A DNA stretch of 20,072 nt, taken from positions 1-20,072 of the forward strand of contig JBGGMM010000213.1 in the NCBI GenBank assembly GCA_041288045.1, written 5' to 3'. The stretch is from Pseudobdellovibrionaceae bacterium (GTDB lineage: Bacteria > Bdellovibrionota > Bdellovibrionia > Bdellovibrionales > Bdellovibrionaceae). Below the pieces are notes generated by a model. That model did no database searches. It saw nothing but the letters and a program-made list of their open reading frames with translations, and was not told the DNA's origin. Position numbers and translations under genes: made by a program. This document shows, piece by piece, positions 10,556-15,246 of this stretch; the first letter of the stretch is position 1; every line of letters starts with the position of its first letter.

Positions 10556-10582
10556 TCAAGTTTTGATGCAATGCGTCGAAGA
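10556..10582 (+). promoter_or_regulatory. Sigma-28 (FliA)-type promoter of flagellin 1
   Basis: TCAAGTTT-N11-GTCGAAGA versus consensus TAAAGTTT-N11-GCCGATAA. Confidence 0.7.
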
Positions 10583-10669
10583 GTGGGGTGACTACTGAAC
10601 GAGGACTTTTGCGTATCTGTGCTAGCGACCTTCGTCTTGTCTCATGTCGGGACAGAAGGGGTGCTGAAA

Positions 10670-11497
10670 ATGGGTTTACGTATCAACACGAATCTGGCGA
10701 GCCTAGCCGCTCAACGCCAGATCAGTTTGTCGCAAAGGCAAGCTGAAGGAACAATGAAAGCTCTCGCGAGCGGAAATCGGTTCGCCAACCGGAGTGAAAG
10801 CTCGGCGGATTTCTCTATCGCTGAACATCTCCGTGGACAGATTGCGGGTATTAAATCCGGCAAGATGAATGCCGAGAACGCGCAATCATTTATTCAAGTC
10901 GCAGAGGGCGGGCTGAACGAACAAAACAATCTTTTGATTCGCATGCGTGAATTGGCTGTGCAAGCCGCAAGCGATACTTTCTCTGATCAAGAGAGAGAGT
11001 TCCTCAACTCGGAATTTGAGCAGCTCCAACAAGAGGTGGATCGCATTGCGCTCACCACTCAATTCGGAAGTCAGAAGCTTCTCGCTGGGGAATCGCGAGA
11101 GTATGATTTCCACGTCGGTGCCTATGGGGGCGCTGAGAATATTATCAAATACAAATCAGAGACAAATACCAGGGCGGGCGAACTGGGCGTTGATGGCTTA
11201 ACAGTCAGTGATAAGTCAGACGCCAGGGATTCTTTGGAATCCATCGACGAAGCACTCACTAAGATCGCTTCGGCCCGATCCGGTTTCGGTGCCATTGATG
11301 CTCGATTGAATTCAGCTGTGAACAGCTCAGGAGTCATGGTTGAAAACTTGGAAGCGGCCAGATCAAGAATCGCCGACACCGACATCGCACAAGCGGTGAG
11401 CGATTTCTACCGCAACCAAGCCATGCAACAATACCAAGTCTCGGTCCTCAATGAAGCCAACCGCTTCCCAGGCTCCGTCATCCGCCTCATCGGTTGA
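10670..11497 (+). CDS. fliC: Flagellin 1 (divergent, 275 aa)
   Basis: MGLRINTN start, IQVAEGGLNE, RMRELAVQAASDT, NLEAARSRIADTD. Confidence 0.93.
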   Translation: MGLRINTNLASLAAQRQISLSQRQAEGTMKALASGNRFANRSESSADFSIAEHLRGQIAGIKSGKMNAENAQSFIQVAEGGLNEQNNLLIRMRELAVQAASDTFSDQEREFLNSEFEQLQQEVDRIALTTQFGSQKLLAGESREYDFHVGAYGGAENIIKYKSETNTRAGELGVDGLTVSDKSDARDSLESIDEALTKIASARSGFGAIDARLNSAVNSSGVMVENLEAARSRIADTDIAQAVSDFYRNQAMQQYQVSVLNEANRFPGSVIRLIG

Positions 11498-11498
11498 G

Positions 11499-11523
11499 GG
11501 GTGCCTTTCTCTTTTTCCTTCAC
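11499..11523 (+). repeat. 25-bp REP-like repeat, copy 1
   Basis: GGGTGCCTTTCTCTTTTTCCTTCAC, identical to 12978-13002. Confidence 0.9.
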
Positions 11524-11537
11524 CCGACGTGTCATTT

Positions 11538-11569
11538 AAAGTGCCTGCTGGATCCCGGCAGGCACTTTT
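11538..11569 (+). terminator. Intrinsic terminator after flagellin 1
   Basis: AAAGTGCCTGC...GCAGGCACTTTT hairpin with a T-tail. Confidence 0.8.
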
Positions 11570-11718
11570 CGTTTGGAGAGGTCCAGTCTCGATCGGACCA
11601 TGGTCTAGGCAAAACTGAGACAAACTAGACCTTGGTCGAAAATATTTTTTTTGGAAATTTCCTTTATTAAATCCGATACAAGACGCGCTGCGCAATAACT
11701 TCTACTGGACCTAAGTCC

Positions 11719-11745
11719 TTTAGTTTCCTGGACCTTCGCCGAGAA
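11719..11745 (+). promoter_or_regulatory. Sigma-28-type promoter of flagellin 2
   Basis: TTTAGTTT-N11-GCCGAGAA. Confidence 0.7.
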
Positions 11746-11948
11746 GTTACATGAACACGTTGGAGCAACCCGACAGAAAGCCAAAGGACCTCGTTCAGTA
11801 GTCAGTTCGAGAATCCTGAAAGCCCAAAGCGGCTCAAGTTCCTGGTTAAAGAGAGTCACCTCTTTGGCCTGGGGACCCACTCCAGCAAACAACAATGTTT
11901 TTCAAAAGGAAAAAACAACACAAACAGTGCGTTTGTAGGAGGAACTAT

Positions 11949-12776
11949 ATGGGCTTAAGAATTTCGACGAACATGCCGTCGATCTCAGCACAACGGGTGC
12001 TGCAGACTCAACAACGGCGAATGGAATCTGCGACTCAAAAATTGGCTTCCGGAAGCAGAATTGTGCAAGCTGCTGACGATGCCGCAGGTCTGGCGATTTC
12101 AGAATCTTTGAAAGGTCAGATTAGAGGTATTGCGCAGGCACGTAACAACGCCTTCAACGCTGGATCGGCGATCCAGGTTTCTGAAGGTGGATTGAATGAA
12201 ATCAATAACATCCTGGTTCGATTGCGCGAATTAGGAATCCAATCAGCATCCGATAATATCGGTCAGAAAGAGCGAATGTTCCTTGAAGAGGAATCTCAGC
12301 AGCTCTTGGCAGAAGCGAATCGTATCGCCTTGACCACTCGGTTTGGTGATAAGCTTTTGCTTGATGGTTCTGGTGGAGAACAAGAATTCCACGTCGGTGC
12401 TTTCGCTGGCGAAGAGAACGTGATCCGTTACACTCTTTCGACAGATGCTCGAGCTTCCGAATTGGGAATTGATAGCATTGACATGTCAGAAAAATCTTCG
12501 GCTCGTGATGCCCTTGGCATCGTCGACGGAGCTCTTGATAAAATCGGTCAGATGCGAGCGAACTTTGGTTCGATCCAAAGCCGACTGAACTCCACAGTTT
12601 CCAACTTGGATATTCAGTATGAAAACTTGAGTGCTGCGAACTCTCGAATCAGAGACACAGACGTTGCGAAAGAAACTGCTGAGATTGCTTCAGCGTCGAT
12701 CTTGCAACAGGCAGCGGTCGGAGTTTTGGCTCAAGCCAACACTTTCCCTGGTGTCGCGCTCAAACTGATCGGGTAA
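11949..12776 (+). CDS. fliC: Flagellin 2 (275 aa)
   Basis: MGLRISTN, SGSRIVQAADDAAGLAISE, NLSAANSRIRDTDVA, VLAQAN. SD AGGAGG. Confidence 0.96.
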   Translation: MGLRISTNMPSISAQRVLQTQQRRMESATQKLASGSRIVQAADDAAGLAISESLKGQIRGIAQARNNAFNAGSAIQVSEGGLNEINNILVRLRELGIQSASDNIGQKERMFLEEESQQLLAEANRIALTTRFGDKLLLDGSGGEQEFHVGAFAGEENVIRYTLSTDARASELGIDSIDMSEKSSARDALGIVDGALDKIGQMRANFGSIQSRLNSTVSNLDIQYENLSAANSRIRDTDVAKETAEIASASILQQAAVGVLAQANTFPGVALKLIG

Positions 12777-12878
12777 TCGAAAAACCACTGATGGGCCCTG
12801 GAACTTTCCAGGGTCCACTCTTGAAGTGGAAAATCGAATCCATTTTATACTTTGATCATCGATTTCCGACTTGAAGAG

Positions 12879-12976
12879 ATCGTGAACCATTTAAGGATTT
12901 TGAGGAGTCGATCAGCACAGATACGAAATTCCTCATTAAGCCCGCCCTTGGGAGATTCCCTCCCAAGGGTTTTTTT
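12879..12976 (+). ncRNA. Candidate sRNA or 3'-UTR-derived RNA antisense to the flagellin-1 leader
   Basis: Weak sigma-28-like promoter (12846-12872), a hairpin whose loop carries most of a 12-nt perfect complement to 10612-10623, and a strong terminator. Confidence 0.45.
12944..12976 (+). terminator. Intrinsic terminator
   Basis: CCCTTGGGAG / attcc / CTCCCAAGGG followed by T7. Confidence 0.88.
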
Positions 12977-12977
12977 A

Positions 12978-13002
12978 GGGTGCCTTTCTCTTTTTCCTTC
13001 AC
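12978..13002 (+). repeat. 25-bp REP-like repeat, copy 2
   Basis: GGGTGCCTTTCTCTTTTTCCTTCAC, 8 bp from the RAYT stop codon. Confidence 0.9.
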
Positions 13003-13010
13003 TCGGCGCA

Positions 13011-13646
13011 TTAAAGCCGCCGCTTTTCCAACTCAGCTTCGCAGTTGCGATTTTTATCTTTGGCCAGTTTGAACTCTCCTTTTCTGAGAGCCTTTCCAAC
13101 AATTTCCCAATCCTGTTTTTCAGTGGCGCTATTGAGCCACTTTAGATTTCCGTCCATATCTTCCATCAGTGGATCCTCCTCAACGGGAATCACTAATTTC
13201 TTTTTTCCCACCAATCCGTGAAGAGTCGAGTAGGGATAACTTTCAGTGTGATGGACGCTGCCGACCTCGACCGGATTTCGGTACACGTATTTGTAGGCAT
13301 GCATGTAGTAGTGATAGGACGTGATCAAGCATTTGAAATTGCGCTGACCGTAGATCCGATTTTTGCGACCGGTTCGCCGGCCGATCTCTCGACTTGTTTC
13401 TGTCATGAGCCACCTCATTGCTTTTCCAAGTGTTCCAGTTGAGTCCGTTAAAATCAGATGAAAGTGATTGGTCATCAAAACGAAGCAATGGATTTTGATT
13501 CCATACGCGTGATGGATGAAGAAGAGTTGTTCTTCGAAAATTTCCCAGACTTCACCTAGGTCCAGTTCGAACCACTCTCGATTATTTGTCCGGGCTGTGA
13601 CGTGGTACGGACAGTCTGTTCTGTGGGCTGGGATTTTTCGCGACAT
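13011..13646 (-). mobile_element. REP-associated tyrosine transposase (RAYT, Y1/HUH family)
   Basis: YHVTARTNNR, HUH motif VLMTNHFHLI, catalytic YVYRNPV, YPYST. SD GAGGTG precedes ATG at 13646. Flanked by inverted 25-bp repeats. Confidence 0.88.
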
Positions 13647-13690
13647 GATCACCTCGTCTGCAGACTTCTCCAAATTTCATGCTGAGGTGT

Positions 13691-13715
13691 GTGAAGCAAA
13701 AAGAGAAAGGCACCC
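13691..13715 (-). repeat. 25-bp REP-like repeat, copy 3 (inverted, 1 mismatch)
   Basis: GTGAAGCAAAAAGAGAAAGGCACCC. Confidence 0.88.
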
Positions 13716-13867
13716 TCTATTAAAGTCGGGGTCTGGCTGGACTGGATCTTTGGAGGACCTGGGGATTTTGGTCCTGATTTCCAGACTGAGGTCTAGTTCA
13801 TGCTGAGATTTTCTGCGACGAAGGTCTAGTTCGCACTGGACCCTGGTCCAGTTTCGCTGGACTCGAC

Positions 13868-13900: not shown

Positions 13901-14167
13901 CAAGCAAGTAGATCGAAAGTCGAAAGACGGATCGAGAGAATGTTCGGGTGTGACTGCCTGAGCAGGATCGTTGAGTGATTGTGAGTGCGAAAGCACCCTC
14001 AGAACTCTGAAGTGATGTCGAGCGATGATTGGTTTACTCCAACGTGTTCAACCCAAGTGGCAAGGAATGCCCACTCTCGAAAATAGCCCAAAGTGGCTAA
14101 GGGGTTCGTGTAGGTTACGAACTCGACGAAAGTCTTGGATGGATTCATCAATTATTGGAGGTCCCTT
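13901..14167 (+). promoter_or_regulatory. Long structured 5' leader of flagellin 3 with CsrA-type sites
   Basis: GAAA tetraloop hairpins (13919-13928, 13985-13996, 14125-14134), GGCA-AGGAA-TGCC hairpin (14059-14071), ATGGA at 14139. Confidence 0.6.
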
Positions 14168-15001
14168 ATGGGAATGAGAATTACAACAAACGTCGCGTCG
14201 ATCAATGCACAAAGAAGCTTGTCGACCACACAAAAAGAGATCAGCAAGAGCTACGCACAGCTCTCTAGTGGATCTCGTATCACCAAAGCTGCTGATGATG
14301 CCGCCGGTTTGGCCATCAGTGAAAACTTGAAATCACAGATCCGATCCTTCACTCAAGCCAGCCGAAATGCGAATGACGGGATCTCGATGGTGCAAGTTGC
14401 AGAAGGTGGACTCGGAGAAATTTCTAACATCCTCACTCGCCTCAGAGAATTGGGTATTCAATCAGCCTCAGACACTGTCGGAGAGCGCGAACGGGGATTT
14501 ATCAACAAAGAGGTCGATCAATTGAAAGCAGAGGCTCAGCGTATTGCCAAAACGACTCGCTTTGGAAGCACCAACCTTCTTGATGGCTCTGGACAGATGT
14601 TCGATATCCAGGTCGGTATTTACAACGATGATTTCGAAGATCGTGTGAGCTTTGATCCGTCTCAGTTAGACGCAACTGCCGCCAACCTCGGAATTGAAGA
14701 TTTGGATTTCAGTCAGAAAGAGGGCGCACAGACCGCACTCTCGGTTTTGGACAATGCTCAAGGCTTGGTTTCCGGTTTCCGCGCCAATATCGGTGCGCTT
14801 CAGAACCGATTCTTCTCAACAGTTGAGAATCTCGGTGTTCAGCATGAGAACTTGTCAGCAGCGAACTCGCGAATCCGTGATGCGGACATCGCGCAGTCCA
14901 CAGCTGAGACCGCTCGAAACTCGATTCTTTTGAATGCTTCCACAAGCGTTCTCGCACAGGCCAACAACAGTCCTCAATTGGCTTTGAAACTGATCGGGTA
15001 A
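14168..15001 (+). CDS. fliC: Flagellin 3 (277 aa)
   Basis: MGMRITTN, LSSGSRITKAADDAAGLAISE, RNANDGISMVQVAEGGL, SRIRDADIA, VLAQAN. SD GGAGG. Confidence 0.97.
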   Translation: MGMRITTNVASINAQRSLSTTQKEISKSYAQLSSGSRITKAADDAAGLAISENLKSQIRSFTQASRNANDGISMVQVAEGGLGEISNILTRLRELGIQSASDTVGERERGFINKEVDQLKAEAQRIAKTTRFGSTNLLDGSGQMFDIQVGIYNDDFEDRVSFDPSQLDATAANLGIEDLDFSQKEGAQTALSVLDNAQGLVSGFRANIGALQNRFFSTVENLGVQHENLSAANSRIRDADIAQSTAETARNSILLNASTSVLAQANNSPQLALKLIG

Positions 15002-15154: not shown

Positions 15155-15179
15155 GTGAAGGAAAAAGAGAAAGGCACCC
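15155..15179 (-). repeat. 25-bp REP-like repeat, copy 4 (inverted)
   Basis: GTGAAGGAAAAAGAGAAAGGCACCC, the exact reverse complement of copies 1 and 2. Confidence 0.9.
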
Positions 15180-15246
15180 TCTACCTAAGGCTAGAAATGG
15201 GTGGGGCTTGTTGAGTCGGGGAGTGGGTTTTTCCGATGAGACGAAC

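What the first reader, a model, noticed from the sequence alone, without database searches (positions are those of the whole stretch)
12846..12976. Candidate sRNA downstream of flagellin 2 that targets the flagellin-1 leader
Seen: AGCACAGATACG (12914-12925) is the exact reverse complement of CGTATCTGTGCT (10612-10623), and gapped complementarity continues through AAATTCCTCATTAAG toward 10595. Most of the seed lies in the loop of a hairpin (TGAGGAGT-CG / ATCAGCACAGATA / CG-aa-ATTCCTCA, 12901-12935), just before a strong terminator. A weak sigma-28-like promoter, TATACTTT-N11-TCCGACTT (12846-12872), would give a ~98-nt RNA. The true terminator lies ~170 nt past the flagellin-2 stop, and the first hairpin (12792-12817) lacks a U-tract. 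The seed is perfect where the flagellin-2 leader duplex is mismatched. Inference: this RNA could displace or compete with that duplex, or both ends of the flagellin-2 mRNA clamp the flagellin-1 leader.
Basis: partly seen in the sequence, partly recalled or inferred. Interest (0 to 1): 0.8.

Follow-up and report, generated by a model that had tools for sequence, protein, structure and literature searches.

The report
Flagellin 3'UTR RNA pairs neighbour's leader
The end of one flagellin mRNA carries a small, widely conserved two-hairpin RNA whose loop is antisense to the leader of the neighbouring flagellin gene, so the two filament genes look coupled by direct RNA-RNA pairing.

Summary
AGCACAGATACG (12914-12925) is the exact reverse complement of 10612-10623. 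It sits in a hairpin (12901-12935) just before a strong terminator (12944-12976).

The element is not a chance hairpin. A covariance model finds it in 80 of 151 family genomes and 82 of 151 order genomes. It is nearly always single-copy and always lies after one flagellin paralog ("fla2").

Structure covaries: 12 of 15 pairs show compensatory changes. Loop complementarity to the upstream flagellin ("fla1") leader is kept with lineage-specific sequences. A contiguous run of 10 nt or more occurs in 19 of 22 genomes. No permutation out of 20,000 matched the observed own-leader fit.

By position and model match it corresponds to APsRNA4, an attack-phase sRNA of unknown function reported in B. bacteriovorus HD100 in 2013.

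Two further pairings emerged:
- The near-invariant linker UCUUAAGCCC is antisense to fla2's own start (AUGGGCUUAAGA).
- The fla2 5'UTR is antisense to the first 16 nt of fla1 mRNA.

The proposed sigma-28 promoter is not supported (0 of 46 3'UTRs). No Hfq gene was found. No RNA data exist for this organism, so expression and the direction of regulation remain inferred.

The parts
10556..10582 (+). fla1 promoter, sigma-28-like: TCAAGTTT-N11-GTCGAAGA. The transcript probably starts near 10590.
   Evidence: Read. The same motif is conserved upstream of fla1 in genus relatives. The promoter assignment and the start site are inferred.
10589..10604 (+). 5' end of the fla1 leader. It is perfectly complementary (16 nt) to the fla2 5'UTR at 11789-11804.
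   Evidence: I1; WC runs of 8-17 nt in 20 genomes, with covariation.
10601..10629 (+). Target of the 3' element in the fla1 leader (GAGGACUUUUGCGUAUCUGUGCUAGCGAC). It contains the exact 12-mer at 10612-10623.
   Evidence: net co-fold gain -13.6 kcal/mol; 0 of 100 shuffled targets reached it.
10670..11497 (+). Flagellin 1 (fla1) coding sequence.
   Evidence: Pfam Flagellin_N and Flagellin_C. The MGLRINTN start is at 10670.
11719..11745 (+). fla2 sigma-28 promoter TTTAGTTT-N11-GCCGAGAA. The transcript start is about 11757 (the A of ACGTTGG), by homology with the start mapped for APsRNA3/Bd0604.
   Evidence: 39 of 46 genomes have it; for the mapped start in the related genome.
11789..11804 (+). 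Block in the fla2 5'UTR that is antisense to the fla1 mRNA 5' end (CCTCGTTCAGTAGTCA).
11949..12776 (+). Flagellin 2 (fla2) coding sequence. Its start region 11950-11958 (UGGGCUUAA) is complementary to the linker at 12936-12944.
12792..12817 (+). Stop-proximal hairpin without a U-tract, part of the structured 3'UTR.
   Evidence: I18; whole 3'UTR z -5.78.
12846..12872 (+). Not supported.
   Evidence: 0 of 46; the region is not conserved.
12901..12935 (+). Hairpin 1 of the conserved element. Loop and 3' arm carry the seed AGCACAGAUACG (12914-12925).
   Evidence: stem covaries.
12936..12944 (+). Single-stranded linker UUAAGCCCG. Across the family it is the near-invariant UCUUAAGCCC.
12944..12976 (+). 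Intrinsic terminator: 11-pair stem, 5-nt loop, U7. It is the 3' end of the fla2 transcript and of the element.
   Evidence: (9 of 11 pairs with compensatory changes).

Best explanation
Positions 12901-12976 are the conserved 3'-terminal RNA module of the fla2 flagellin transcript. They correspond to APsRNA4, reported in B. bacteriovorus HD100. The module has three parts: a hairpin presenting a C-rich loop, a short single-stranded linker (UUAAGCCC), and the gene's intrinsic terminator.

It acts by extended antisense pairing, in a lineage where I found no Hfq gene.
- Shown by comparison: loop and 3' arm of hairpin 1 are complementary to about nt +12 to +40 of the mRNA of the upstream flagellin gene fla1, and this complementarity co-evolves.
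- Shown by comparison: the fla2 5'UTR is complementary to the first 16 nt of the same fla1 leader. The fla1 leader can therefore be held by both ends of the fla2 mRNA, or by RNAs derived from them.
- Shown as complementarity, weaker as covariation: the linker can pair with fla2's own start-codon region (+2 to +12).

Inferred: this pairing couples fla1 translation or stability to the amount of fla2 RNA. Folding predictions lean towards opening a sequestered fla1 ribosome-binding site, which would mean activation, but the direction is not established. Whether the module acts inside the full-length mRNA or as a separate ~100-200-nt RNA is open.
For: Element is real and ancient:
- The model R1 finds it in 80 of 151 family genomes (33 of 41 genera), one copy in each.
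- It finds it in 82 of 151 order genomes, in 12 of 13 families.
- On 51 aligned copies, 96.0% of cells are paired and 12 of 15 pairs show compensatory changes. The covariation score is 0.590, against 0.235 in shuffles (0 of 500 reached it) and at most 0.155 when partners are slid.
- It always follows the fla2-type flagellin gene.

Pairing with the fla1 leader:
- Within the genus, the leader reads CGTATCTGTG where the element reads CACAGATACG (G000, G007), and CGTGTCTGTG where it reads CACAGACACG (others). G006, G002 and G001 keep pairing through G:U.
- 19 of 22 genomes with an upstream flagellin have a contiguous run of 10 nt or more, 40-110 nt before its ATG. The mean is 11.6, against 8.9 for other genomes' leaders.
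- Divergent loops have matching leaders: GCCCACGCCAGAGGTG / TACCTCTGGTGTGGGC; CACACACGCT / AGCGTGTGTG; GGAGGTTGTCCCGC / GCGGGACAACCTCC in another family.
- In a permutation of leaders among genomes, 0 of 20,000 reached the observed summed energy.
- In the window, the co-fold gain is -13.6 kcal/mol (0 of 100 shuffles). Control RNAs gave 0.0 and -2.0.

Linker and fla2 start:
- 43 of 46 genomes have a run of 10 nt or more.
- fla2 codons 2-4 are GGC TTA AGA in 41 of 46 genomes, while codon 5 varies. fla1 genes encoding the same MGLRI use many codon combinations.
- Only 1 of 7 flagellin genes in this genome has this start.
- One compensated change: UUGAGA paired with UCUCAA in G035.

Expression in a relative: APsRNA4 (98 nt, 116-fold attack-phase enriched, start taken from 5'-end data) lies 30-127 nt after the Bd0604 stop (PMC3627812, Table 2 and Table S1). 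It overlaps the model hit in G104.
Against: - No RNA data for this organism; only DNA runs were listed.
- The genus containing G104 keeps the loop (20 of 32 genomes hit) but has no fla1 upstream. None of its other five flagellin leaders is complementary. The loop must therefore have a further role or partner.
- 3 of 22 genomes show only 5-8-nt runs. The genome's own leader ranks first in only 5 of 22 (median rank 4).
- In a genome-wide duplex scan, the fla1 leader is the best non-self site of 12,118 candidates, but only narrowly (-46.0 against -45.1).
- A test for G:U over A:C mismatches, which would fix the transcribed strand, was inconclusive (8 against 5, with 9 ties).
- Linker-start complementarity is interrupted in 3 of 10 other families, although the start codons stay the same.
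- The fla1 leader's own fold is not better than shuffles (z -0.29). The rise in ribosome-site accessibility (13 of 15) had no matched control.
Confidence: 0.6

Rival explanations
1. The module's main job is self-control of fla2. The linker pairs with fla2's own start codon region, in cis or as a 3' fragment, and blocks initiation. The fla1 leader has far more complementarity and acts as a competitor that releases this block.
For: - The linker is predicted unpaired between two hairpins and pairs with the fla2 start with a net gain of -8.5 kcal/mol (0 of 100 shuffles).
- 43 of 46 genomes have a run of 10 nt or more.
- There is synonymous-site constraint on fla2 codons 2-4.
- The element is kept in the genus that lacks fla1.
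- Several fla1 leaders carry GGGGCUUAA, a copy of the fla2 start.
Against: - Both partners are nearly invariant, so covariation is thin: one compensated case.
- 3 of 10 other families have an interrupted linker but unchanged start codons.
- In the window itself the run is only 9 bp.
- CUUAAG is a palindrome, so 6 of the 11 pairs come for free once both sites contain it.
Confidence: 0.3
2. It is a free-standing sRNA gene with its own sigma-28 promoter at 12846-12872, giving a ~98-nt RNA.
For: - In HD100, the APsRNA4 start was assigned from 5'-end data inside the 3'UTR, 30 nt after the stop (PMC3627812, Methods passages and Table 2).
- The letters of a weak match are present.
Against: - 0 of 46 homologous 3'UTRs have a sigma-28-like site, against 39 of 46 upstream of fla2.
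- APsRNA4 is not flagged as FliA-dependent in Table 2.
- The spacer is unconserved.
- The gap from stop to hairpin is as short as 19 nt, and 60 nt or less in 7 of 46.
- The APsRNA4 read density (3,500) is below that of the gene (11,984).
Confidence: 0.1
3. It is only a structured 3'UTR and terminator that stabilises fla2 mRNA. The complementarity is a relic of an old inverted duplication of a flagellin leader and has no pairing function.
For: - The reverse complement of the element resembles the fla1 leader over about 45 nt.
- Stop-proximal hairpins and strong terminators are ordinary.
Against: A relic would decay independently in each lineage. Instead, matched pairs fit better than mismatched ones (0 of 20,000 permutations), and fully diverged loops have matching leaders in different families.
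Confidence: 0.12
4. The inverted repeats act at the DNA level, as recombination or inversion sites or as paired protein-binding sites flanking fla1-fla2.
For: - They are inverted repeats about 2.3 kb apart.
- A Y1 transposase-like gene lies next door.
- The G:U against A:C test did not exclude a DNA-level reading.
Against: - The order fla1, fla2, element is the same in all 22 of 22 genomes examined, so no inverted arrangement was seen.
- The element is a covarying RNA fold with a one-directional terminator.
- The neighbouring transposase goes with a different, dispersed repeat.
Confidence: 0.03

Closest known systems
APsRNA4 of Bdellovibrio bacteriovorus HD100 (Karunker et al. 2013, PMC3627812; read: passages, all of section 16, rows of supplementary files 2 and 3)
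   Same: - Same place: directly after the fla2-type flagellin gene (Bd0604) and before a transposase-like gene (Bd0605), on the same strand.
- The published interval 562,984-563,081 overlaps the model hit 563,033-563,117 in G104, whose flagellin gene has the coordinates the paper lists.
   Different: - The paper gives no target or function and states that no homology was found outside B. bacteriovorus. Here the element is found across an order.
- That genus lacks the fla1 partner.
hly 3'UTR - prsA2 5'UTR mRNA-mRNA pairing in Listeria monocytogenes (PMC8722363; abstract read)
   Same: The 3'UTR of one full-length mRNA pairs with the 5' end of another mRNA that encodes a functionally linked protein.
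   Different: - There the effect, protection from RNase J1, is shown. Here the effect is unknown.
- Here the partners are paralogous neighbouring flagellin genes, and a second contact from the 5'UTR exists.
icaR 5'-3'UTR pairing in Staphylococcus aureus (PMC3868564; abstract read)
   Same: A short C-rich 3'UTR motif is complementary to the translation initiation region of the same mRNA.
   Different: - icaR pairs with the Shine-Dalgarno sequence. Here the pairing covers the start codon and codons 2-4.
- RNase III cleavage and the translational block are shown for icaR and untested here.
FliX, an sRNA cut from the fliC 3'UTR of E. coli (PMC10578931; abstract and passages read)
   Same: A regulatory RNA from the 3'UTR of a flagellin gene, tied to late flagellar expression and acting on flagellin mRNA.
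   Different: - FliX was defined in Hfq-based RIL-seq and pairs inside coding sequences.
- Here no Hfq gene was found, complementarity is long, and the target is a 5' leader.
- No sequence or Rfam relation.

Membership tests
APsRNA4 (B. bacteriovorus HD100) | Lies between the Bd0604-type flagellin gene and the Bd0605 transposase-like gene, on the gene's strand | tested here: met
   Window order: fla2 11949-12776, element 12901-12976, Y1_Tnp gene 13011-13673 on the minus strand. The paper's Table S1 and Table 2 coordinates show the same order in G104.
APsRNA4 (B. bacteriovorus HD100) | Sequence and structure relation to the published interval | tested here: met
   Model R1, built from this genus, hits G104 at 563,033-563,117 (E 3.0e-5). 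That lies inside or overlapping 562,984-563,081 and extends to the terminator.
APsRNA4 (B. bacteriovorus HD100) | Attack-phase-specific expression with its own 5' end | not testable with these tools
   No RNA run is listed for this sequence.
3'UTR-derived, Hfq-dependent sRNA (FliX type) | Shares the terminator of a protein-coding gene | tested here: met
   The only U-tract terminator after fla2 is 12944-12976. The hairpin lies 19-486 nt after the stop in 46 genomes.
3'UTR-derived, Hfq-dependent sRNA (FliX type) | Depends on Hfq | tested here: not met
   PF17209 was not found in G000 (83% complete), G006 or G104 (both 99% complete). The control search rings in E. coli and four other genomes.
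3'UTR-derived, Hfq-dependent sRNA (FliX type) | Accumulates as a separate processed RNA | not testable with these tools
   Needs a Northern blot or end-mapping.
Sigma-28-dependent sRNA gene | Sigma-28 promoter directly upstream | tested here: not met
   0 of 46 3'UTRs pass a threshold that 39 of 46 fla2 promoters pass. The window's candidate has 2 and 4 mismatches.
mRNA-mRNA 3'UTR/5'UTR pairing (hly-prsA2 type) | 3'UTR of mRNA A complementary to the 5' leader of mRNA B, kept in evolution | tested here: met
mRNA-mRNA 3'UTR/5'UTR pairing (hly-prsA2 type) | Pairing changes the stability or translation of mRNA B | not testable with these tools
   Only a folding prediction is available.
Same-mRNA 5'-3' pairing (icaR type) | 3'UTR motif complementary to the mRNA's own initiation region | tested here: met
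   43 of 46 genomes have a run of 10 nt or more; the window has 9.
Same-mRNA 5'-3' pairing (icaR type) | Covariation of the two sites | tested here: inconclusive
   One compensated change (G035). 3 of 10 other families have an interrupted linker with unchanged start codons.
Any Rfam family | Match at or near the gathering score | tested here: not met
   No match in 12777-12990 at E up to 10.

The most novel reading that the evidence does not exclude
A three-way RNA clamp. The 5' leader of one flagellin mRNA (fla1) is captured at the same time by the 5'UTR and by the 3'UTR module of the neighbouring flagellin mRNA (fla2). The same 3' module can alternatively close on fla2's own start codon. The two paralogous mRNAs would then switch each other's translation on or off by direct, chaperone-independent mRNA-mRNA pairing. 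This would be an order-wide device for setting the order or ratio of flagellins in a multi-flagellin filament.
Probability: 0.3. Interest if true: 0.85.

Novelty: new variant of a known kind. Interest (0 to 1): 0.7.

Why it matters
Bacteria with several flagellins must make them in set amounts and order, and how they do this after transcription is largely unknown.

The comparative evidence here is of the kind normally used to accept an RNA structure. It points to direct pairing between the mRNAs of two neighbouring flagellin genes, conserved across an order of bacteria in which I found no Hfq.

It also gives a concrete, testable target and mechanism to APsRNA4. That sRNA was detected in 2013, and no later mention of it came up in my literature searches.

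It adds a well-supported case to the short list of bacterial 3'UTR-to-5'UTR and mRNA-mRNA regulators.

Tried and rejected
Expression data
- The look-up of sequencing runs listed no RNA holder, only soil and groundwater DNA runs.

Database and literature searches
- Rfam: nothing at the element. Three weak hits elsewhere, all far below gathering scores.
- Earlier-findings look-ups returned nothing.
- Literature: 'APsRNA' appears only in the 2013 paper plus an unrelated plant paper. 'Bdellovibrio, flagellin, sRNA' gave 8 papers and 'Bdellovibrio, flagellin, mRNA, untranslated region' gave 5. None concerns this RNA, judging by title and abstract start.

Analyses that were uninformative or failed
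- RNAduplex on long stretches was uninformative (z from -4.6 to +0.1). An earlier version of the script timed out.
- The G:U against A:C mismatch test, meant to fix the RNA strand, was inconclusive.
- A 10-mer search for a loop partner in three complete genomes gave chance-level counts.
- The other five flagellin leaders of G104 show no notable complementarity (best 11 of 200 shuffles) and no fla1-type motifs.

Candidate features rejected
- Second site I4, where the element's UUAAGCCCGCCCU would pair with the fla1 codons for EGGLNE. The synonymous sites there vary among relatives while the element does not.
- The sigma-28 promoter at 12846-12872.
- Small ORFs across the element (12690-12890 minus strand, 12845-13102 minus strand, 12852-13145 plus strand). 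They have no Pfam match and run across the terminator and a dispersed repeat.
- The direct repeat 11499 / 12978 as part of the element. It is a dispersed repeat.

Input slips, corrected and re-sent.

Full report
**What is there.** The window holds three flagellin genes: fla1 (10670-11497), fla2 (11949-12776) and a third at 14135-15001. A Y1/IS200-like transposase gene lies at 13011-13673 on the minus strand (Pfam). The assembly has seven flagellin genes in all.

The finding's letters are as stated. AGCACAGATACG at 12914-12925 is the exact reverse complement of 10612-10623. The pair is unique in the 2.89-Mb assembly. In the window, allowing 1 mismatch, 0.05 matches are expected and 2 are found.

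The seed lies in hairpin 12901-12935 (z -4.58). The 9-nt stretch 12936-12944 follows; its last base already belongs to the terminator stem. Then comes an 11-pair terminator with U7. The whole 201-nt 3'UTR is strongly structured (z -5.78).

**It is a conserved RNA.** The block around 12898-12996 is 75-87% identical in all 7 same-genus genomes. The spacer between it and the stop codon gives no match.

- A covariance model built from the 8 genus copies finds exactly one copy in 80 of 151 family genomes, in 33 of 41 genera.
- It finds the element in 82 of 151 order genomes, in 12 of 13 families. Two of those genomes have two copies. These searches use strict filters, so the counts are lower bounds.
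- On 51 aligned copies, 96.0% of cells pair and 12 of 15 pairs show changes on both sides. The covariation score is 0.590. Shuffles give 0.235 (0 of 500 reach the observed value) and slid partners give at most 0.155. The alignment was fitted to the model, which favours the structure somewhat.
- The family consensus is GAGUnGUCGCCCACA...ACUC-UUAAGCCC-terminator.
- In the 46 loci where a start codon could be located, the gene directly upstream is a flagellin starting MGLRI. The stop-to-hairpin gap is 19-486 nt, median 126.
- Rfam has nothing here.

**Link to a published RNA.** Karunker et al. 2013 list eight attack-phase sRNAs of B. bacteriovorus HD100 (PMC3627812; I read passages, all of section 16, and rows of supplementary files 2 and 3).

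- APsRNA4 is at 562,984-563,081 on the plus strand. It is 98 nt and 116-fold attack-phase enriched.
- Table S1 puts the flagellin gene Bd0604 at 562,130-562,954 and a 'putative transposase', Bd0605, at 563,136-563,792.
- In handle G104, a 274-aa flagellin gene occupies exactly 562,130-562,954. The published interval reads as an upstream hairpin, hairpin 1, the linker and the start of the terminator. The model hit is 563,033-563,117.
- The gene order flagellin, element, transposase-like gene is the one seen in the window.
- The paper assigns no target and reports no homology outside B. bacteriovorus.
- APsRNA3 (561,854-561,981, FliA promoter) is the first 128 nt of the Bd0604 leader. By homology the fla2 transcript in the window starts near 11757, behind TTTAGTTT-N11-GCCGAGAA.

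**Pairing with the fla1 leader.** Within the genus the seed co-varies.

- G000 and G007 have leader CGTATCTGTG with element CACAGATACG.
- The others have CGTGTCTGTG with CACAGACACG.
- G006, G002 and G001 keep the pairing through G:U.

Across 22 genomes that have a flagellin gene upstream of fla2, the longest contiguous complement (Watson-Crick plus G:U) between hairpin 1 and that gene's leader is 10 nt or more in 19. The exceptions have 8, 8 and 5 nt. The mean is 11.6, against 8.9 when other genomes' leaders are used.

Loops that have diverged are matched by their own leaders:

- GCCCACGCCAGAGGTG with TACCTCTGGTGTGGGC;
- CACACACGCT with AGCGTGTGTG;
- a 15-nt perfect match in L088.

In other families there are 13 nt (G030), 14 nt with an unrelated sequence (G026), and 13 nt each in G031 and G028.

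Permuting leaders among genomes never reached the observed summed duplex energy (0 of 20,000). A genome's own leader ranks first in only 5 of 22, median rank 4, because relatives share sequence.

In the window, co-folding opens hairpin 1 and gains -13.6 kcal/mol net (0 of 100 shuffled targets). The fla2 5'UTR and the third flagellin's leader gain 0.0 and -2.0.

**Two further contacts.**

(a) The fla2 5'UTR carries a perfect complement of 8-17 nt to the very 5' end of the fla1 leader in the 20 genomes examined. In the window it is 16 nt, 10589-10604 with 11789-11804. It again shows lineage-specific pairs, such as TGACTATTGGCGAG / CTCGCCAATAGTCA.

(b) The near-invariant linker UCUUAAGCCC is antisense to fla2's own start, AUGGGCUUAAGA.

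- 43 of 46 genomes have a run of 10 nt or more. The window has 9.
- fla2 codons 2-4 are GGC TTA AGA in 41 of 46 genomes, while the next Ile codon varies freely. fla1 genes encoding the same MGLRI use many codon combinations.
- Only fla2 of the seven flagellin genes here has this start.
- One lineage shows a compensated change, UUGAGA with UCUCAA.
- Against this, three of ten other families have an interrupted linker but unchanged start codons.
- CUUAAG is a palindrome, so part of the match is automatic.

**What is not supported.**

- The sigma-28-like site at 12846-12872 has 2 and 4 mismatches to the consensus. No homologous 3'UTR has such a site (0 of 46), whereas 39 of 46 fla2 promoters do.
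- An internal start of another kind remains possible, given the 5'-end call for APsRNA4. Even so, in HD100 the read density of APsRNA4 (3,500) is below that of the gene (11,984).
- No Hfq gene was found in G000, G006 or G104. That fits the long antisense-type complementarity.

**Mechanism.** The following are shown by comparison: a conserved fold, its position at the fla2 3' end, and co-evolving complementarity to the fla1 leader.

The outcome is inferred. In 12 of 15 fla1 leaders whose start I could estimate, the ribosome-binding site is predicted to be mostly paired. Blocking the nucleotides bound by the element raises its unpaired probability in 13 of 15. This suggests activation by unfolding. 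The calculation had no matched control, and the leader's fold is not better than shuffles. Stabilisation of the 5' end, or RNase III cleavage of the 30-45-bp duplex, are equally open.

**Unexplained.** The genus containing G104 keeps the loop although it has no fla1 upstream and no complementary flagellin leader.

**Comparison and verdict.** The closest relatives in kind are these:

- the hly 3'UTR-prsA2 5'UTR mRNA pair of Listeria (PMC8722363, abstract);
- icaR 5'-3'UTR pairing (PMC3868564, abstract);
- the fliC-3'UTR sRNA FliX of E. coli (PMC10578931, abstract and passages).

The element is a counterpart of APsRNA4 and a new variant of 3'UTR-borne antisense regulation. The promoter does not.

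Noticed in passing
window 11499-11523, 12978-13003 (+), 13691-13716 and 15155-15180 (-): AGGGTGCCTTTCTCTTTTTCCTTCAC is a dispersed repeat. A blastn listing shows about 50 matches across the assembly, often as inverted pairs 60-110 nt apart. Inverted copies flank the Y1/IS200-like gene at 13011-13673, an arrangement like REP elements with their associated transposase. The gene sits where Bd0605 'putative transposase' sits in HD100.
   Followed up: partly
window 11757-11948: The fla2 5'UTR (about 192 nt) is long and conserved to order level (BLAST matches to 11678-11769 in many families). Its first part corresponds to APsRNA3 of HD100, which the 2013 paper lists as a separate FliA-dependent sRNA. 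It may be a processed or attenuated leader.
   Followed up: partly
window 10905-10920 vs 12933-12948: The linker and terminator foot are 88% complementary to the fla1 codons for EGGLNE (repeat I4). The synonymous sites there vary among relatives, so this is probably chance.
   Followed up: yes
L079 (G063) 206-278 and 886-953: One family genome carries two copies of the element about 680 nt apart on the same strand. Two order genomes, G176 and G230, also have two hits.
   Followed up: no
whole genomes G000, G006, G104: No Hfq domain (PF17209) was found in three genomes of this family, two of them 99% complete.
   Followed up: partly
window 11590-11650 and 11700-11740: Repeated CTAGACC/GGACC-TTGGTC-like words occur upstream of and within the fla2 promoter region (for example ACTAGACCTTGGTCGAAAAT). 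They are conserved in relatives and may be regulator sites.
   Followed up: no
window 11485-11570: There is a weak Rfam match to ar14 (27.3 bits against a gathering score of 58.8, E 0.032) over the fla1 stop and terminator. It is most likely chance.
   Followed up: no
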